The position numbers were made by a program, and so were the translations under genes. This document shows, one piece after another, positions 464-12,839 of a stretch of 23,695 nt of DNA. The notes beneath the pieces are model-generated. The model saw nothing but the letters and a program-made list of their open reading frames with translations. It searched no databases and had not been told where the DNA came from. How positions within the stretch are numbered: position 1 is the stretch's first letter; every line of letters starts with the position of its first letter. This stretch comes from Candidatus Thorarchaeota archaeon (GTDB lineage Archaea; Asgardarchaeota; Thorarchaeia; Thorarchaeales; Thorarchaeaceae): the NCBI GenBank assembly GCA_046758445.1, contig JBHIAE010000043.1, positions 1-23,695 on the forward strand, given 5' to 3'.

Positions 464-518
464 TCAAACCCGAAGTCCATGCACAGTTTTAGATATTATC
501 ATGGAAGGTGTGATTATA

Positions 519-2162
519 ATGAGTTCAAACCAGATTCCAGTGCTCGTTCTTCGCGAAGGCACTGATAGAACACGTGGACGTGATGCTCAGAGAAACAACA
601 TCATGGCTGCGATTGTGATTGCTGAGGCAGTCAAGTCTGCGCTGGGTCCAAAGGGTATGGACAAGATGCTCGTGGACTCTTTTGGGGATGTGACAGTATC
701 AAACGATGGTGCCACTATACTGAAGGAGATGGACATTGCGCATCCGGCTGCCAAGATGGTAATTGAAGTCGCAAAGACTGTAGACTCGGAAGTTGGTGAT
801 GGTACAACCACTGCTGCGGTGCTCACGGGGGATCTTCTGAAACACGCAGAGGCCCTGTTGGATCAGAAGATTCATCCAACCACTATCATCAGCGGCTATC
901 GGAAAGCAGCAGAGAAGGCGCTCGAAGTCATCAACGACGTTGCAGAGAAGGTTGACCCAGGGTCGAGTGACTACAGGAGGGTCTTGATAGATGCTGCCAA
1001 GACGGCCATGTCCAGCAAGTTTGTTGCGACTTCACGTGATGGGCTTGCCAAGACCGTTGTGGAGGCAGTCCTATCGATTAGCAAGGATCTTGACCCCGAC
1101 GAGGAGCTCGACATTGATGACATTCCACGCCAAAAGCAGGAGGGGATGGCTGTTGATGCTACTGAGCTTGTGAAAGGACTAGTTCTAGACAAGGAGATTG
1201 TGCATCCTGGAATGCCCAAGAAGGCTGTCAACGCGAAGATCGCTCTGCTTGAGAGCCCGCTCGAGGTTACAAAGACCGAGTTTGACGCCAAGATCTCGAT
1301 AAGCGACCCGACTTCGATGCAGAGCTTCCTCGATGAGGAGGAACGGATGCTGAAGAGCATGGTAGACAAGATTGTCGAGGCAGGTGCAAACGTAATCATT
1401 GCTCAGAAGGGCATCGATGACGTGGCACAGCACCATCTGGCCAAGAATGGAATTCTTGCAGTACGAAGAATCAAGAAGTCAGACGTTGAGCGACTTCACA
1501 AGACCACGGGCGCGACGATAGTTTCCAAGATTCAGAACCTCACAAAGGACGATCTTGGCACCGCGAAGCTAGTGGAGCAAAGGACCGTCGGCGAGGATAA
1601 GATGCTGTTTGTGGAGGGGACTCCAAAATCCTCTGTTGTGACATTAATCGTAAGAGGCGGCACGGACCACATCGTCGATGAGGTTGATAGAGCCCTCAAC
1701 GACTCATTATATGTCGTTCGTGATGTCGTGACCCATCCTTACGTTACATATGGAGGCGGAGCTCTGGCTGCAGAGATTGCCAAAGAGTTACGTAACTATG
1801 CCGATACGCTTGAAGGCAGAGAGCAGTATGCAGTAAACGCATTCGCAGATGCTGTTGAATCACTTCCATCGACACTAGCGGAGAACGCAGGTCTTGACCC
1901 CATTGATGTTATCGTGAGCCTTAGAACTGCCCATACAGAGGGGAATGTTACACACGGAATCGATATAGATAAGGGGAAGGTCGGTGACATGAAGAAGGCA
2001 CGAGTTGTCGAGTCGGCACTTGTGAACAGGCAAATCGTGATGTCAGCTGCTGAGGCTGCTCAGATGGTCCTGAAGATTGATGATGTCATCAGTTCCAAGG
2101 GTGCTGGCCTGGGCGGCCCTGGAGCCGGACCGGGCGAAGACTTAGATGGCGACGAGGACTAG
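519..2162 (+). CDS. ths: Thermosome subunit (group II chaperonin, TCP-1/cpn60 family)
   Basis: Motifs [32 protein letters not shown] and ILKIDD-like VLKIDDVI, plus a Gly/Pro/acidic tail. The likely start is ATG 519 (MSSNQIPV) after the SD-like GGTGTGA; the ORF track starts at 501. Confidence 0.97.
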
Positions 2163-2196
2163 AAACAGTCAAACCGTCATACAGCAGGTGTGCCAC

Positions 2197-2868
2197 ATGT
2201 CAAAGGGCTCTAAGAAAGAGAAGACCAAGAAGAAGAAGGATGGAGAAACCTCCGGTGTGGAATTGGAGATTCTGACAAACATCCCTGGAGTCGGTCCAAA
2301 GACAGCTGAGAAGCTACTTGAAGCAGGGTATGGAGATCTTGCCAAGATTGCGTCGACAGGTTCAGAGGAACTAGCTGCAGCCGTTCCGGGCCTCAGCGTT
2401 GCAAAGGCCAACGAAGTTATCCAAGCAGCGGCGAAGCTCAAGGAGGATGTGGAGTCCGGGAAGATCGACTTGACTGCTAAAGGCAAGAAAGCCAAGCGGA
2501 AGAAGGCTCCAGAACCTGAACCAGACGTTCATGAGCTTCCCCCTGCAGAGGAGATTGCCAAGGCAGAAATCAGGTCAAGTCTCAAGACTGGATTAGACCA
2601 GGACAAGGTCAAGATGGGAATACCAGTTGGGCCAAAATGGTTGACGAAGTTTGAGAAGGCTCGCATCATCGGGGCCCGAGCTCTTCAGATTTCCATGGGT
2701 GCGCCGGTTCTCATACCCACAAAGACCGCTCCTTCTGGGCTCTTCGCACTTGCTGAGGCAGAACTGCGAGCACAAGTACTTCCGTTGACTGTTCGCAGAA
2801 CCTTACCCACAGGAGAGCATTTTGACGTACCGCTATCAAGACTACTTGAGAACACGAGGCTCGACTAG
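2197..2868 (+). CDS. rpoK: DNA-directed RNA polymerase subunit K (Rpo6/RPB6) with an N-terminal helix-hairpin-helix domain
   Basis: The C-terminal [22 protein letters not shown]...[12 protein letters not shown] is the Rpo6/RPB6 signature. The N-terminal [20 protein letters not shown]...[13 protein letters not shown] forms two HhH motifs. Start ATG 2197 follows CAGGTG; the ORF-track start at 2146 overlaps the thermosome gene. Confidence 0.9.
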
Positions 2869-2981: not shown

Positions 2982-4310
2982 ATGCAAGAACTACTCCTTA
3001 GTCCGGACATAGTGATCAGGTTCCTGATTGGATTCGCAGTAGGGGCTTTAATAGGCCTAGAGCGCCAGAAGCGAATGGTGGAGGAGTCAACCGCAGGTGT
3101 GAGGTCTTTTGGACTCTTGAGTCTTTTCGGAACAATCACCGCCTATACTTACACTGTCACAGACAACATCGTGATAATGGTATACGCGATAGCAGTTTCC
3201 ACAATCCTGATCGGAGTTCAAATTACCTACAAGATGTTCAGGACCATGAGGAAGGGGATGACAACCTCCATTGTGTTGGCGATAGCATTCACACTAGGCA
3301 TCCTCGTGGGTTTCGATGCACCGCCCCCTCCTGGACAGCTCGTCGGTCCTCTTCAGGTCCTGGCTATGACGGTTGCATTCTTGGTGTTTCTAGTCCTAGG
3401 CTTCAAGCAGGAGTTTCAAGCACTGGTGGCGGTCATAAGCCGAGATGAGATGATTAGCGCAGCTGAGCTTGGCGTCCTGATTCTCTTCCTTTGGCCTCTC
3501 ATTCCTGATTCAGTACAGATATGGACCATCATTCTTCCTGCACAACAAATCTACCTCTTGGTGATCTTACTTCTGTCTATCAGTTTCGTAAACTACATCC
3601 TCGTCAAGAAGTTTGGAAGCAGAGGGCCCTTCTTCTTCGGGTTCTTTGGAGGGTTCGCCAACAGTGAAGCTACAGTTTCTAGTCTAACGGACTTCCATGT
3701 CAAGACTGGCAGGAAATATCCAGGCAGAATAGCTCTATCTGCAATTCTCGCAAATGTCGCAATGATCCTGAGAAATGGAGTCATAGTGGTGATTCTCGAC
3801 CCGACTCTCCAGATCTTCAAGTACTACGTTATTCCTCTTGCAATCCTTGTACTAGGTGCCACGTACAGAATGATCAGAGAAAGTAGACGAACTGAAACCG
3901 TGGACGAGGGACAAATCGAAGCGGCCTTGGGATCTCCTTTCGAGTTCGGCGCAGCAATCAGATTCGTGATAGTCTTCACCGGCGTTTCACTTCTTTCACT
4001 CTTGTTGCAAGAAGTGTACAGTGATTCCGGTGTCATTGTGGCCGCCCTAATTGGAGGTTTTGCTTCAGCAGGCGCTATTGTGGCAACAGTTGGAATCGGT
4101 TTTGCCGGTGCCACGATTGGTCTAACTACAGCAGTATTTGCAGTGATCATCGCTACGACAACGTCTGTTTTGAACAAGGTGGTGTATGTATACACTTCCG
4201 ACCGTGAAGCCGGTTTACTCAGAAACGTGGCCAAGGACTCACTGATAATGGCGGCTGGGGTCGTTGTCTTCATCATTCTGCTTGCAACGGGATTCATTCC
4301 GATTGTGTGA
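2982..4310 (+). CDS. MgtC/SapB family membrane protein with DUF4010
   Basis: GALIGLERQ, AGVRSFGLLSLFG, GMTTS, SISFVNYILVK, GFFGGFANSEAT and SPFEFGAAIRF motifs; many transmembrane helices. Confidence 0.85.
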   Translation: MQELLLSPDIVIRFLIGFAVGALIGLERQKRMVEESTAGVRSFGLLSLFGTITAYTYTVTDNIVIMVYAIAVSTILIGVQITYKMFRTMRKGMTTSIVLAIAFTLGILVGFDAPPPPGQLVGPLQVLAMTVAFLVFLVLGFKQEFQALVAVISRDEMISAAELGVLILFLWPLIPDSVQIWTIILPAQQIYLLVILLLSISFVNYILVKKFGSRGPFFFGFFGGFANSEATVSSLTDFHVKTGRKYPGRIALSAILANVAMILRNGVIVVILDPTLQIFKYYVIPLAILVLGATYRMIRESRRTETVDEGQIEAALGSPFEFGAAIRFVIVFTGVSLLSLLLQEVYSDSGVIVAALIGGFASAGAIVATVGIGFAGATIGLTTAVFAVIIATTTSVLNKVVYVYTSDREAGLLRNVAKDSLIMAAGVVVFIILLATGFIPIV

Positions 4311-10485: not shown

Positions 10486-10655
10486 AGAAAGCTCTGTAGC
10501 TTCCTCTTAATAATCTCCTCTTGTGGCTCTTTGGCCGCTAGACTCAATCACCAATACACTGGAGTACGAATATGGAACTGGCGCTAGCTTTAAAAACGGG
10601 GTCAGTCCTGTCGCCCCAGCCTGACCTACCGGTCACTAGGTATCAGGAAGGCTCG

Positions 10656-12839
10656 ATGATGAAGTCAACCAATAGACTCCTTACTGTGCTGCTACTGGCA
10701 TTGGTCTTGGCGGGGGCCATGCAGGCTCAGCCGTTAGCAATGAACAGCACCAACGATTACAGAGCCCAACTAGATACATCGCTATCATTAGTGTTGGCGG
10801 GCTTTGACTCACAGAACATTAGTGTCAGTCTTGTCAGCCCCACAAATAGAAGTGGAGTGTCTGGCACCTTCAACATCACACTGGACATAGCTTCTGACTT
10901 CGGAGTCTTGAATACTACACTGTTTATTGACGGGGCTATCTACCCAGCATACAACGAAACACCGCTGAGCACAGGAACTCAGAACCTGACAGTGGACACA
11001 GTTTCATTTCCAGAGGGCAACCTGAACTTCACTGTGTTTCTGGAGTACAAGAACGACACTTGGGACGAGAGAGAGTCCTCCTACTTAGTCTACTTTGTTG
11101 ATAATGATGGACAGAACTTCGAGATCAACCTTTTGAGTCCAGCAAACGAAAGTACACTCGTAGGAACTGAGGGTCTTCAACTCAACATAACATCAGACTT
11201 CGACAACATCAATTTCACACTTCTCATTGATGGTGTTGCCTATCCCACCTACGACTTTGTCTTGATTGCCGCACAACAGCAGACAATCAATGTGGATACA
11301 ACGACACTTAGAGAAGGCTGGTTGAATTTCACATTGGTGTTTGACTATGAAGTTGTCAATGTCCAGGAAACACATCTGCACTTTCTGATGTTCCTCATAG
11401 ATAATGATGGTCAGCCGATAACGTTGAGTCTTTTGTCTCCGACCAACCAAAGCGAAGTTTCGGGTGTCTTCAATCTGACCGTAGAGATCGCTTCAGACTA
11501 TGGTCTGGTCAATCTCACTCTATTCGTCGACAATGTCATTCAGTATTCTCAGTACAATGAGACCCCATTTGTGTACGGGGTCCACGACCTCACACTCAAT
11601 ACCACGGTGCTCAAGGAAGGTCTGAACAACTTCACTGTCCTTCTTGAGTACAACGTAACCGGTGAGAACGCCAAGATAGCATATTACTTTGAGTTCATAG
11701 TCAACAACTTTGGGGCGCCCAATGTTGTCATCCTTTCTCCTGACGTGGACGGTCAGTTCACCGGAGTCGACATGATTGAACTCAACATAACTTCTGCCTA
11801 CAGCTTTGTGAACCTCACCATCAGTGTTGACGGTGTCATAACCCCAGAGTACAACTCCACGACGGTACCTGTGGGAGCGGGAATGTACAGTATAAACGGC
11901 AGTCGATATGAGAACGGGCACCACATCGTAACTGCCACTGTCAAGACTGCAGAGGGATTGGAGAACTCAGCCTCCCGTCAGCTCTTCTTCCTTGACCACA
12001 TTCGATTCTATGTGAGAGGCATCACGAACTTCGATGAGATAGCAGGTAACGAGAGCATCAACCTAAGAATCGAAACGCCATACCAGAATGTGACGGTATC
12101 CGTGTATGTCGACGATGTACTGGTGCCGGGCATCGTGAATGTGACTGTACCGGCTGGTGATGCAATCCTCACCCTTGACACCACGCCTTACAGTGAAGGC
12201 CCACACAATGTCACGTTCAGGGCATTCAGCGTTGGGGGTCACTCTTGGGAGAACTTGCTGATCCTCGTCGTTGACAATCACGGAGCGCCTTCTGTGACTC
12301 TCACATCTCCGCTTACGGAAGTCATTGTTGGGATAACTACATTCACTATCGAGATTGAAAGTACATGGGATACCGTCAATCTCACCGTCTTTGTTGACGA
12401 CGTAGAGGTCTCTACGCTCAGTGGCCTGTCTGTCGATGTGGGCGAAGTGACCTTCGAGATTGACACAAACAACTACAGCAAATGGGAACACACAGTAAGA
12501 GTCTTGGTAACTACGGAGGAAGGACTCACTGGAGAGACTGAGGCAGTCTTCGGATTCGCTAACATGAAGATAGAAGAGATCGTGAGCATTGCGATCGTAT
12601 TAGTGATAGGAATAGGACTACCCGTGCGGCAGTGGCGGAAAGGTGGCTCGATGAGAGCTGTTCTGTTTGCAGATCTTCTGTTCGTGGCTGTAGTAGGCGG
12701 GCTCTACTTAGTGCTCGGAATAAACTCCCTGGCGTTTGCCTTGTGGCATATCAATTTGGCTAGCATATGGGCAATAGGAATTGCCTTCATATTCACAAAT
12801 TGGCTTGTTCCCTTGGCAGTAGAATCACAAGAAGAGTGA
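10656..12839 (+). CDS. Cell-surface glycoprotein with six tandem Ig-like repeats and a C-terminal 3-TM anchor
   Basis: Signal peptide MMKSTNRLLTVLLLALVLAGA; about 95-100 aa beta-rich repeats (LxSPxN...VxGxxNxxxxIxS...LFxDG...DTxxxxEG...VDN); many N-x-S/T sequons; three terminal hydrophobic helices. A TATA at 10589-10596 supports start 10656 over 10572. Confidence 0.8.
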   Translation: MMKSTNRLLTVLLLALVLAGAMQAQPLAMNSTNDYRAQLDTSLSLVLAGFDSQNISVSLVSPTNRSGVSGTFNITLDIASDFGVLNTTLFIDGAIYPAYNETPLSTGTQNLTVDTVSFPEGNLNFTVFLEYKNDTWDERESSYLVYFVDNDGQNFEINLLSPANESTLVGTEGLQLNITSDFDNINFTLLIDGVAYPTYDFVLIAAQQQTINVDTTTLREGWLNFTLVFDYEVVNVQETHLHFLMFLIDNDGQPITLSLLSPTNQSEVSGVFNLTVEIASDYGLVNLTLFVDNVIQYSQYNETPFVYGVHDLTLNTTVLKEGLNNFTVLLEYNVTGENAKIAYYFEFIVNNFGAPNVVILSPDVDGQFTGVDMIELNITSAYSFVNLTISVDGVITPEYNSTTVPVGAGMYSINGSRYENGHHIVTATVKTAEGLENSASRQLFFLDHIRFYVRGITNFDEIAGNESINLRIETPYQNVTVSVYVDDVLVPGIVNVTVPAGDAILTLDTTPYSEGPHNVTFRAFSVGGHSWENLLILVVDNHGAPSVTLTSPLTEVIVGITTFTIEIESTWDTVNLTVFVDDVEVSTLSGLSVDVGEVTFEIDTNNYSKWEHTVRVLVTTEEGLTGETEAVFGFANMKIEEIVSIAIVLVIGIGLPVRQWRKGGSMRAVLFADLLFVAVVGGLYLVLGINSLAFALWHINLASIWAIGIAFIFTNWLVPLAVESQEE

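What the first reader, a model, noticed from the sequence alone, without database searches (positions are those of the whole stretch)
2197..2868. RNA polymerase subunit Rpo6 carries a tethered (HhH)2 domain: a possible alpha-CTD-like arm on an Asgard RNAP
Seen: the Rpo6 core occupies only about 2620-2865. It is preceded in frame by a Lys-rich N-terminus ([10 protein letters not shown]), two HhH motifs (about 2272-2436; [12 protein letters not shown] and [12 protein letters not shown]) and a ~60-aa charged/Pro linker ([15 protein letters not shown]). Established: typical archaeal Rpo6 is a small single-domain protein, and eukaryotic RPB6 has a disordered acidic N-terminal tail that contacts TFIIH. 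Bacterial RNAP alpha-CTD and the NusA AR domains are HhH-type folds on flexible linkers that contact DNA or regulators. Inference: this lineage may have attached a flexible DNA- or protein-binding module to its polymerase through Rpo6, at the position where eukaryotes have the RPB6 tail.
Basis: partly seen in the sequence, partly recalled or inferred. Interest (0 to 1): 0.8.

Follow-up and report, generated by a model that had tools for sequence, protein, structure and literature searches.

The report
RNA polymerase subunit Rpo6 with HhH arm
In one family of Asgard archaea (Thorarchaeota), the only copy of the small RNA polymerase subunit Rpo6 is made as one protein with a DNA-binding-type helix-hairpin-helix domain on a tightly conserved 59-residue connector; the fusion is real and lineage-wide, its existence was noted in one sentence of a 2026 paper, and its function is untested.

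Summary
Window 2197-2868 (+) is one 223-aa gene: a variable N-tail, an (HhH)2 domain (residues 24-86), a 59-residue connector and an Rpo6/RpoK core. It is the only rpoK found in a 92.7%-complete genome.

- **Distribution:** The full fusion occurs in 79 of 85 genomes of the same family (16 genera) and in no other Asgard family among 400 genomes.
- **Start site:** A conserved GGTG Shine-Dalgarno sits upstream of ATG 2197, and the internal Met is not conserved. dN/dS is about 0.1 for the HhH domain and about 0.08 for the connector. These argue against an assembly chimera or an internal start.
- **Connector:** It is not a free linker. Its length is invariant (57-59 aa), and a basic-then-Pro/Glu motif is as conserved as the core.
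- **New context:** In this family the same kind of HhH plus basic/Pro-rich module is also fused to ribosomal protein L32e and, twice, to topoisomerase VI-A. A Heimdall-group lineage independently carries (HhH)2 at the C-terminus of Rpo6.

Best reading (about 0.5): a polymerase-borne, sequence-nonspecific nucleic-acid tether. The main rival is a protein-recruiting arm, because the HhH domain itself is net acidic. A 2026 paper (PMC13257274) already noted the extension in one sentence, so the novelty is moderate.

The parts
501..2162 (+). Thermosome (group II chaperonin) gene immediately upstream; probable first cistron of a thermosome-rpo6 operon
   Evidence: ORF. Thermosome-rpo6 synteny was found in 16 of the 19 orthologous loci; the other three are cut by a contig end or lack it. 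The stop-to-ATG gap is 33-36 nt in all 14 loci where it could be measured, which leaves no room for a promoter. Co-transcription is inferred.
2187..2190 (+). GGTG Shine-Dalgarno-like motif 6 nt upstream of ATG 2197
   Evidence: Conserved in position in the orthologous loci of several genera. Supports translation of the full-length fusion.
2197..2868 (+). rpoK/rpo6 coding sequence, 223 aa plus stop: HhH-connector-Rpo6 fusion
   Evidence: The start and N-terminus are conserved in orthologues. It is the only rpoK match in the genome.
2197..2265 (+). Variable, probably disordered N-terminal tail (residues 1-23)
   Evidence: pLDDT about 38. Least conserved segment, major-residue frequency 0.44. dN/dS about 0.49. 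Charge varies from -13 to +4 among orthologues.
2266..2454 (+). (HhH)2 domain (residues 24-86), RadA-NTD / Topo V-repeat type
   Evidence: PF14520 E 3e-13. Five predicted helices. Foldseek match to RadA NTD at rmsd about 1 A. PDB sequence matches to Topo V residues 615-678 and to RadA NTD. dN/dS about 0.10. Invariant G33, P34, K39, G65, S67, K70 on the two hairpins.
2455..2631 (+). Connector of fixed length (residues 87-145), no predicted regular structure up to residue 131, then a short pre-core helix
   Evidence: Length 57-59 aa in 119 sequences, with no indels in residues 105-145. dN/dS about 0.08 for residues 87-131. Secondary structure.
2485..2547 (+). Highly conserved linear motif inside the connector (residues 97-117): basic patch (net +6) followed by a Pro/Glu stretch and H-x-L-P-P
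   Evidence: Major-residue frequency 0.82 and entropy 0.64 bits, against 0.83 and 0.66 bits for the Rpo6 core. dN/dS about 0.06. R101, E106, P109 and L114 are invariant. The motif is duplicated together with the HhH domain in the 320-325-aa variants P0020 and P0023.
2602..2865 (+). Rpo6/RpoK core (NF002207 match at residues 136-222; folded core 146-223)
   Evidence: NCBIfam 84 bits, above the cut-off of 71. pLDDT about 90. Foldseek matches to RPB6 and RpoK chains, TM about 0.8 and 37-48% identity.

Best explanation
Window 2197-2868 encodes the single Rpo6 (RpoK) subunit of a Thorarchaeota RNA polymerase. It is made as one polypeptide in which a RadA-NTD/Topo V-type (HhH)2 domain is joined to the Rpo6 core by a 59-residue connector of fixed length. 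That connector carries a conserved basic patch followed by a Pro/Glu-rich stretch.

The C-terminal core assembles into the polymerase at the base of the clamp, as in all archaeal and eukaryotic enzymes. This follows from homology.

The most likely function of the N-terminal module is inferred, not shown. The HhH hairpins together with the adjacent basic patch would contact the sugar-phosphate backbone of duplex nucleic acid without sequence specificity. This would give the polymerase a built-in tether to DNA flanking the transcription bubble. Such a tether could stabilise promoter loading and/or retention during elongation, comparable to Sulfolobus Rpo13 or to engineered HhH-polymerase chimeras.

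The module belongs to a family-wide set of HhH plus basic/Pro-rich add-ons. These were also attached to ribosomal protein L32e and topoisomerase VI-A in the same lineage.
For: **Shown**
- Domain identities.
- It is the sole rpoK in a 92.7%-complete genome. In the two single-contig genomes of the family, G004 and G344, the fused gene was the only match.
- The full-length fusion is present in 79 of 85 family genomes across 16 genera and in none of the other 30+ Asgard families. The six 'missing' cases looked at are contig-end truncations or a gene that is absent altogether, not short genes.
- The start is conserved, with a GGTG Shine-Dalgarno and a 33-36-nt gap after the thermosome gene.
- Met139 is replaced by K, L or I in orthologues.
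- Purifying selection acts on the HhH domain (dN/dS 0.10) and the connector (0.08), compared with 0.05 for the core.
- Invariant residues cluster on both hairpins, including K35, K39 and K70.

**Supporting nucleic-acid binding (inference)**
- The closest solved relatives are domains of DNA-handling proteins: the RadA N-terminal domain and a repeat of Topo V, whose HhH array surrounds DNA and contacts only the backbone (PMC9489208).
- The HhH domain is always followed by a +6 basic patch.
- The same kind of HhH plus Lys/Pro-rich module sits on L32e and, twice, on Topo VI-A in this genome. Both fusions are confined to the same family, with variable copy number.
- An independent fusion of one or two (HhH)2 domains to the C-terminus of Rpo6 exists in a Heimdall-group lineage. 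Close relatives of those proteins carry a Lys/Ala/Pro-rich tail instead.
- There are precedents for a polymerase-borne non-specific DNA contact: Rpo13 (PMC3479171) and HhH-Phi29 chimeras (PMC8313265).
Against: - No binding data of any kind exist.
- The Rpo6 HhH domain is net acidic (median -4) and the N-tail is usually acidic (median -6), whereas the L32e and Topo VI-A modules are basic at +4 to +9. This fits a protein-binding HhH domain such as the NusA acidic repeats at least as well.
- The invariant connector length and motif suggest a defined docking path or partner rather than a loose DNA tether.
- The closest Topo V repeat (repeat 7) is among those reported not to touch the DNA backbone directly.
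- A single HhH motif fused to T7 RNA polymerase gave no benefit (PMC12630135).
- The location of the module relative to DNA on the polymerase was not modelled.
- Expression as one polypeptide is inferred from sequence only.
Confidence: 0.5

Rival explanations
1. Protein-recruitment arm. The acidic N-tail plus acidic (HhH)2 domain, held at a fixed distance by the conserved connector, binds a transcription, repair or chromatin factor rather than nucleic acid. This would be analogous to the NusA acidic repeats binding alpha-CTD, or to the acidic RPB6 N-terminal tail binding TFIIH p62.
For: - The HhH domain has median net charge -4 and the N-tail -6.
- Connector length is invariant, and a linear motif is as conserved as the core, which is typical of a partner-binding short linear motif.
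- The module sits at the same position as the RPB6 tail, which is a documented protein-binding element (PMC8754651).
- HHH_5-type domains include protein-binding examples. This rests on established knowledge of NusA AR1/AR2. The L32e module also gives a weak hit to the NusA C-terminal repeat model.
Against: - No candidate partner was identified.
- Lysines are conserved on both hairpins, which form the canonical backbone-binding face.
- The module is always coupled to a strongly basic patch and is duplicated together with it.
- The sister modules on L32e and Topo VI-A are basic and sit on nucleic-acid enzymes.
Confidence: 0.25
2. RNA-directed module. The HhH domain and basic patch bind nascent or structured RNA (or RNA-DNA hybrid) near the RNA exit and stalk side of the polymerase. 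The L32e copy would then presumably bind rRNA.
For: - The same kind of module is fused to a ribosomal protein.
- An HhH-L32e architecture also exists as NCBIfam model NF009401.
- The Rpo6 core lies at the clamp base (PMC8754651). Its proximity to the stalk and RNA exit is from established Pol II structure knowledge, not tested here.
Against: - The closest relatives of the domain are DNA-binding.
- Topo VI-A, a DNA enzyme, carries two copies.
- No RNA-binding test was possible.
Confidence: 0.08
3. Autoinhibitory, DNA-mimicking gate. The acidic tail and acidic HhH domain occupy the DNA channel of free polymerase, or shield the basic patch, and are displaced on DNA loading. This would work like sigma region 1.1.
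For: - Acidic tail and acidic domain lie next to a +6 basic patch on a tether.
- Tethered acidic channel-occupying elements exist in other polymerases. This is established knowledge and was not tested here.
Against: - The tail's charge is not conserved: it ranges from -13 to +4 and is basic in this very species.
- The tail evolves almost freely, with dN/dS 0.49.
- Nothing places the module in the channel.
Confidence: 0.07
4. Not one functional protein. Either an assembly or gene-calling artefact, or two products with the Rpo6 core made from an internal start, or a selectively neutral appendage.
For:
- One 60%-complete bin (G350) holds an extra short rpoK-like frame of 90 aa.
Against: - The in-frame fusion is found in 79 genomes of 16 genera and in hundreds of metagenomic proteins, with no stops.
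- The internal Met is not conserved.
- A conserved Shine-Dalgarno sits at the upstream ATG.
- The HhH domain and connector are under purifying selection, dN/dS about 0.1.
- There is no second rpoK in the own genome or in the two single-contig genomes.
Confidence: 0.05

Closest known systems
Canonical archaeal Rpo6/RpoK and eukaryotic RPB6 (RPABC2)
   Same: The C-terminal 80-90 residues match in sequence and fold: NF002207 above its cut-off, and Foldseek TM about 0.8 with 37-48% identity to RPB6 and Sulfolobus RpoK. As in RPB6, the extra material is N-terminal to the core.
   Different: Typical archaeal RpoK is a protein of roughly 55-120 aa without a tail. RPB6 has a disordered acidic tail that binds TFIIH p62 (PMC8754651). 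Here the extension contains a folded (HhH)2 domain and a conserved basic plus Pro/Glu motif. Eukaryotes have no HhH there.
Thorarchaeota Rpo6 'long N-terminal sequence' noted by Shematorova & Shpakovski 2026 (PMC13257274)
   Same: It is the same protein family. That paper reports that AlphaFold3 detected a structured fragment in the long N-terminus of Thorarchaeota Rpo6, and it cites the HhH-fold paper.
Bacterial RNAP alpha-subunit C-terminal domain (alpha-CTD, PF03118)
   Same: A small helical HhH-type domain tethered to an assembly subunit of a multisubunit RNAP. The resemblance is in architecture.
   Different: It is on a different subunit (alpha, not omega/Rpo6). No PF03118 match was found for this protein at E<=1. 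Alpha-CTD recognises UP elements and activators, whereas this domain is RadA/Topo V-like, and its connector is of fixed length and conserved.
Sulfolobales Rpo13
   Same: A lineage-specific addition to archaeal RNAP. Its C-terminus binds dsDNA non-specifically and stabilises RNAP-DNA contacts (PMC3479171). This is the closest functional precedent within archaea.
   Different: Rpo13 is a separate small subunit with a different fold, docked near Rpo5 and the clamp head. Here the appendage is covalently part of Rpo6, and DNA binding is not shown.
Methanopyrus kandleri topoisomerase V (HhH)2 array, RadA/Rad51 N-terminal domain, and engineered HhH-polymerase chimeras
   Same: These are the closest solved relatives of the domain: Topo V residues 615-678 (38.5 bits at domain level) and RadA NTD (36 bits, rmsd about 1 A). 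Topo V repeats bind only the DNA backbone (PMC9489208). Topo V HhH repeats fused to Phi29 polymerase raise salt tolerance and processivity (PMC8313265).
   Different: There is a single domain instead of an array, it is net acidic, and it is fused to a non-catalytic RNAP subunit in nature. A single HhH motif on T7 RNAP gave no benefit (PMC12630135).
HhH-L32e ribosomal protein architecture (NCBIfam NF009401 / PRK12766)
   Same: An N-terminal HhH domain plus linker on a core-machinery protein. This genome's L32e aligns end to end with that model, and its HhH domain is the closest paralogue of the Rpo6 one at 43-46% identity.
   Different: The carrier protein is different. The score is below the equivalog cut-off (128 against 239 bits), so the two fusions may be independent.

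Membership tests
Rpo6 / RpoK / RPB6 (NF002207, PF01192) | Sequence match to the curated RpoK model above its cut-off | tested here: met
   NF002207 scores 84.3 bits against a cut-off of 71 (residues 136-222), and NF002208 scores 71 against 57. PF01192 scores only 23.2 against 26, a partial match.
Rpo6 / RpoK / RPB6 (NF002207, PF01192) | RPB6-type fold of the core | tested here: met
   The AF2 core has pLDDT about 90. Foldseek matches RPB6 and RpoK chains with TM about 0.8 and rmsd 1.3-1.5 A.
Rpo6 / RpoK / RPB6 (NF002207, PF01192) | It is the organism's polymerase subunit: the only copy, assembled in RNAP | tested here: inconclusive
   It is the only match in the 92.7%-complete genome and in the single-contig relatives. 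Physical presence in RNAP is not testable here.
(HhH)2 domain, Pfam HHH_5 (PF14520) | Match above the gathering threshold, and two helix-hairpin-helix motifs joined by a connector helix | tested here: met
   PF14520 scores 50.4 bits against 27. Five helices are predicted at residues 19-86. Hairpin 1 has the G-h-G pattern and hairpin 2 is G-L-S, as in Rad51/RadA.
(HhH)2 domain, Pfam HHH_5 (PF14520) | Sequence-nonspecific binding of duplex DNA backbone | not testable with these tools
   Support is indirect only: conserved hairpin lysines and homology to DNA-binding domains.
Bacterial RNAP alpha-CTD (PF03118) | Sequence membership in RNA_pol_A_CTD | tested here: not met
   PF03118 gave no hit at E<=1 for the window protein. 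The Heimdall-type C-terminal fusion P0129 does give a 32-bit overlapping hit.
RadA / Rad51 recombinase | N-terminal HhH domain followed by a RecA-type ATPase core | tested here: not met
   Only the N-terminal roughly 65 positions of TIGR02236 and NF003301 match, at 43 and 35 bits against cut-offs of 361 and 259. There is no ATPase domain. The genome's true RadA is at G000:C60:12543-13628.

The most novel reading that the evidence does not exclude
Thorarchaeaceae spread one kind of (HhH)2 plus basic/Pro-rich module onto three unrelated core machines: RNA polymerase via Rpo6, the ribosome via L32e, and topoisomerase VI via its A subunit. On the polymerase, the fixed-length conserved connector would place the domain at a defined site. 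There it would act as a built-in DNA-contacting element that influences promoter loading or elongation. This would be a natural, Rpo6-borne counterpart of bacterial alpha-CTD or Sulfolobus Rpo13. The Heimdall-group C-terminal fusion would be a second, convergent occurrence in Asgard archaea.
Probability: 0.3. Interest if true: 0.75.

Novelty: new variant of a known kind. Interest (0 to 1): 0.55.

Why it matters
Archaeal and eukaryotic RNA polymerases are generally thought to depend on separate factors (TBP, TFB, TFE, Spt4/5) for DNA contacts outside the cleft. Rpo6/RPB6/omega is regarded as an assembly subunit.

A lineage in which the only Rpo6 carries a conserved folded HhH domain at the position of the eukaryotic RPB6 tail shows that this exposed terminus repeatedly acquires functional appendages in Asgard archaea:
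- an N-terminal HhH domain in Thorarchaeaceae;
- a C-terminal HhH domain in a Heimdall lineage;
- Lys-rich tails in other lineages.

If the module binds DNA, it would be a natural example of the 'fuse a non-specific DNA binder to a polymerase' design used in enzyme engineering. It would also be a tractable system for asking how extra DNA contacts change initiation and processivity.

The same kind of module on L32e and Topo VI-A suggests a family-wide adaptation whose selective cause is unknown. Ionic conditions, chromatin or a shared scaffold are possibilities.

The practical limit is that no Thorarchaeota culture or biochemical data exist.

Tried and rejected
- **Complex prediction.** Partner was the connector (residues 87-131), tested against Rpo1'', one Rpo5 paralogue and the Rpo6 core. 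It returned no verdict (0.28, 0.02; mark 0.32). This says nothing for or against docking.
- **The search for related loci with P0129 alone.** It found no relative in genome contigs. A first try with the alignment failed. The second try found only short Heimdall and TACK Rpo6 genes. The C-terminal fusion was then located with the genome search in G085.
- **Rpb8 family search in the own genome.** It found nothing, but the model also misses the archaeal control genomes, so it is uninformative.
- **Alpha-CTD membership.** Rejected.
- **Internal start at Met139.** Rejected, because the Met is not conserved and the Shine-Dalgarno lies at the upstream ATG.
- **Assembly chimera.** Rejected.
- **ATG 2146 as the start.** This in-frame ATG overlaps the thermosome stop. 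It was rejected in favour of 2197, because orthologues begin at the M-S/P-x-G/D start that follows the conserved GGTG.
- **Conservation of the connector motif outside the family.** Not found in other long Rpo6/RPB6 tails.
- **Literature on HhH fusions to L32e or Topo VI in Asgard archaea.** Nothing was found in the indexed papers.
Full report
**1. The observation**

The window holds one open frame from ATG 2197 to the stop at 2866-2868 on the + strand. An in-frame ATG at 2146 overlaps the end of the upstream gene.

The 223-aa product matches Pfam HHH_5 at residues 24-79 (E 3e-13, above the gathering score). It matches the curated RpoK model NF002207 at residues 136-222 (84 bits, cut-off 71).

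An AlphaFold2 model built on 119 orthologues has these parts:
- A disordered tail at residues 1-18.
- Five helices at residues 19-86, which is the (HhH)2 pattern, with pLDDT about 70-77.
- No regular structure at residues 87-131.
- A confident Rpo6 core with pLDDT about 90.

Foldseek against the PDB matches the core to RPB6 and RpoK chains (TM about 0.8, rmsd 1.3-1.5 A, 37-48% identity). It matches the N-terminal domain to the N-terminal domain of RadA (rmsd 1.0-1.2 A over 57-60 residues, 45-47% identity).

By sequence, the nearest solved domains are an (HhH)2 repeat of Methanopyrus topoisomerase V (residues 615-678, 38.5 bits at domain level) and RadA N-terminal domains (36 bits).

**2. Is it one real gene, and the only Rpo6?**

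Family searches of the window's own assembly (113 contigs, 92.7% complete) find no other rpoK.

The full-length fusion is present in every relative of the same family that has the gene. In a survey of 400 genomes of the phylum, 79 of 85 family genomes from 16 genera have it, at 52-95% identity. All other Asgard families have only the core, in open frames of about 90-175 aa.

I examined four of the six family genomes without a match. One has the gene cut by a contig end and three lack any rpoK, which fits their incompleteness. The two single-contig genomes of the family each show only the fused gene.

A sister family of the same order (G025) has a 151-159-aa Rpo6 with a charged, apparently disordered tail and no HhH domain.

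About 280 metagenomic proteins match at E<=0.001. All of the best 120 listed carry an HHH_5 annotation, and the sources name many of them 'RNA polymerase subunit K' of Thorarchaeota. These include the early SMTZ1-45 genome.

The start at 2197 is supported in two ways. The N-terminus (M-S/P-x-G/D...) is conserved. A GGTG Shine-Dalgarno motif (window 2187-2190) is conserved in all genera, inside an intergenic gap of only 33-36 nt after the thermosome gene. The two genes are therefore probably co-transcribed.

The only internal Met before the core (residue 139) is K, L or I in other genera.

Pairwise dN/dS by segment:

| Segment | dN/dS |
|---|---|
| N-tail | about 0.49 |
| HhH domain | 0.10 |
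| Connector | 0.08 |
| Connector motif (97-117) | 0.06 |
| Core | 0.05 |

Assembly chimera, internal start and neutral appendage are all unlikely. No transcript or protein data could be obtained.

**3. The connector is not a passive linker**

Across 119 orthologues the stretch between the HhH domain and the core is 57-59 residues, with no indels at all in residues 105-145.

Residues 97-117 form a basic patch of net charge +6, followed by a Pro/Glu run and an H-x-L-P-P element. They are as conserved as the Rpo6 core (major-residue frequency 0.82 against 0.83) and more conserved than the HhH domain (0.70).

In rare 320-325-aa variants, the HhH domain is duplicated together with a copy of this motif. 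This ties the motif functionally to the HhH domain.

The extreme N-terminus, by contrast, is free to vary. It is Lys-rich only in this species and acidic in most others. The motif was not found in the long tails of other Rpo6/RPB6 proteins.

**4.

(a) In the same genome, the same kind of module is fused to two other proteins:
- The module is an (HhH)2 domain followed by a Lys/Pro/Glu-rich stretch.
- Ribosomal protein L32e carries one copy (G000:C1:66106-66897, 264 aa).
- Topoisomerase VI subunit A carries two copies (G000:C60:2869-4998, 710 aa).

The three fusion modules resemble each other more than they resemble the genome's own RadA N-terminal domain. Rpo6 against L32e is 43-46% identical, and all three share a G-L/V-S second hairpin.

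Both extra fusions are confined to the same family, with variable HhH copy number between genera. The sister family and other Asgard groups have the short forms. An HhH-L32e architecture is known as NCBIfam NF009401. The Thorarchaeota protein aligns with it end to end but scores below its cut-off.

(b) A search of 1.84 billion representative proteins found three clusters with the N-terminal fusion. It also found a separate small group with the reverse order: Rpo6 core, then a charged linker, then one or two (HhH)2 domains.

One member of that group lies in a genome of a Heimdall-group family (G085, L107:655-1227, 190 aa). Its close relatives carry a Lys/Ala/Pro-rich tail at the same place. Other Asgard Rpo6 proteins have Lys-rich N-terminal tails.

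Both termini of Rpo6 thus repeatedly acquire appendages of a DNA-binding type.

**5. How it most likely works**

Shown: the domain identities, the single-gene status, the selection and the distribution.

Inferred from homology: the core assembles at the base of the clamp, as RPB6/RpoK does (PMC8754651).

Inferred function:
- The HhH hairpins, with invariant G33, P34, K39, G65, S67 and K70, plus the adjacent +6 patch form a bipartite, sequence-nonspecific nucleic-acid contact.
- About 45 non-helical residues separate the domain from the pre-core helix.
- On simple length grounds, that is enough for the domain to reach duplex DNA on either side of the polymerase. This was not modelled.

Precedents are Sulfolobus Rpo13, whose C-terminus binds dsDNA non-specifically on the polymerase (PMC3479171), and Topo V HhH repeats. 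Those repeats contact only the DNA backbone (PMC9489208) and improve salt tolerance and processivity when fused to Phi29 polymerase (PMC8313265).

I put this reading at about 0.5.

The main rival, at about 0.25, is a protein-recruiting arm. Three facts support it:
- The Rpo6 HhH domain is net acidic (median -4), unlike the basic L32e and Topo VI-A modules.
- The connector has the hallmarks of a partner-binding linear motif.
- The equivalent RPB6 tail binds TFIIH p62.

RNA binding and an autoinhibitory role are minor alternatives. A complex prediction for connector docking gave no verdict and is not used as evidence.

**6. Comparison with what is known, and novelty**

The protein is a member of the Rpo6/RpoK family, and its N-domain is a member of the HHH_5 (HhH)2 family. 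It is not a member of the bacterial alpha-CTD family (no PF03118 match), and it is not a RadA, because it has no ATPase domain.

The alpha-CTD comparison holds only as an architectural analogy.

Shematorova and Shpakovski (Int J Mol Sci 2026, PMC13257274) already mentioned the long N-terminus of Thorarchaeota Rpo6 containing a structured fragment. [quoted passage not shown] I found no other description in the indexed literature.

The following appear to be new:
- The family-restricted but universal distribution, and the sole-copy status.
- The RadA/Topo V-type identity of the domain.
- The fixed-length conserved connector.
- The operon with the thermosome gene.
- The shared module on L32e and Topo VI-A.
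- The independent C-terminal fusion in a Heimdall-group lineage.

**7. Verdict**

I rate it a new variant of a known kind: a multisubunit RNAP with a tethered accessory domain. Interest is about 0.55. It is a solid and unusual architecture of an essential subunit, with testable hypotheses. However, its existence has been noted before and its function is unproven.

Noticed in passing
G000:C1:66106-66897 (L114:2107-2901, +), outside the window: Ribosomal protein L32e carries an N-terminal (HhH)2 domain and a Lys/Pro-rich linker of about 70 aa (264 aa, directly after the L6 gene). This fusion is confined to the same family as the Rpo6 fusion, and some genera have 2-4 HhH copies. It aligns end to end with the HhH-L32e model NF009401 but scores below its cut-off.
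   Followed up: partly
G000:C60:815-4998 (L113), outside the window: Topoisomerase VI subunit A (710 aa) has a Lys-rich N-tail, two (HhH)2 domains and a long Lys/Pro-rich linker before the TP6A_N/Toprim core. The adjacent subunit B has a Lys-rich N-terminal tail. The HhH extension of subunit A is confined to the same family, in frames of 617-863 aa against about 400-480 aa elsewhere.
   Followed up: partly
L107:655-1227 (G085:C41), and proteins P0129, P0271-P0274, P0205; relatives P0275/P0276: There is an independent, reverse-order fusion in a Heimdall-group family: Rpo6 core, then a charged linker, then one or two (HhH)2 domains at the C-terminus. Close relatives carry a Lys/Ala/Pro-repeat tail instead. 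In other Asgard genomes, Rpo6 has a Lys-rich N-terminal tail (for example P0138, which fits the G161:C82 match).
   Followed up: partly
G000:C31, about 10597-11858, minus strand (L116:797-1411 and L116:1492-2058): Two tandem Rpo5/RpoH genes of 205 and 189 aa. Each has an N-terminal Mrr/restriction-endonuclease-like domain of about 110 aa (PF04471, E 1e-4 to 8e-6) followed by Rpb5_C. This resembles full-length eukaryotic Rpb5, not the short archaeal RpoH, and it is duplicated.
   Followed up: no
window 501-2196: The thermosome gene ends 34 nt before the rpo6 ATG. The 33-36-nt gap and a GGTG motif are conserved across genera, which suggests a chaperonin-rpoK bicistronic operon. That differs from the ribosomal-protein/rpoN/rpoK/enolase context usual in other archaea; the usual context is from my own knowledge.
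   Followed up: partly
P0180 (553 aa) and G088:C157:4677-4937 (open frame 536 aa): An Rpo6 core lies at the C-terminal end of a frame that begins with LarA (lactate racemase) N- and C-domains. This could be a real fusion or a missing stop between neighbouring genes in a Heimdall-group genome.
   Followed up: no
G350:C236:13076-13339: One 60%-complete bin of the family holds a second, short rpoK-like frame (90 aa, 69% identical to the core) in addition to the fused gene. It may come from a mixed bin or be a true paralogue.
   Followed up: no
window 2982-4310 (+): A 442-aa multi-pass membrane protein follows rpo6. It was found next to rpo6 in most of the orthologous loci examined; in one genus hisS is the neighbour instead. 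Its identity was not examined.
   Followed up: no
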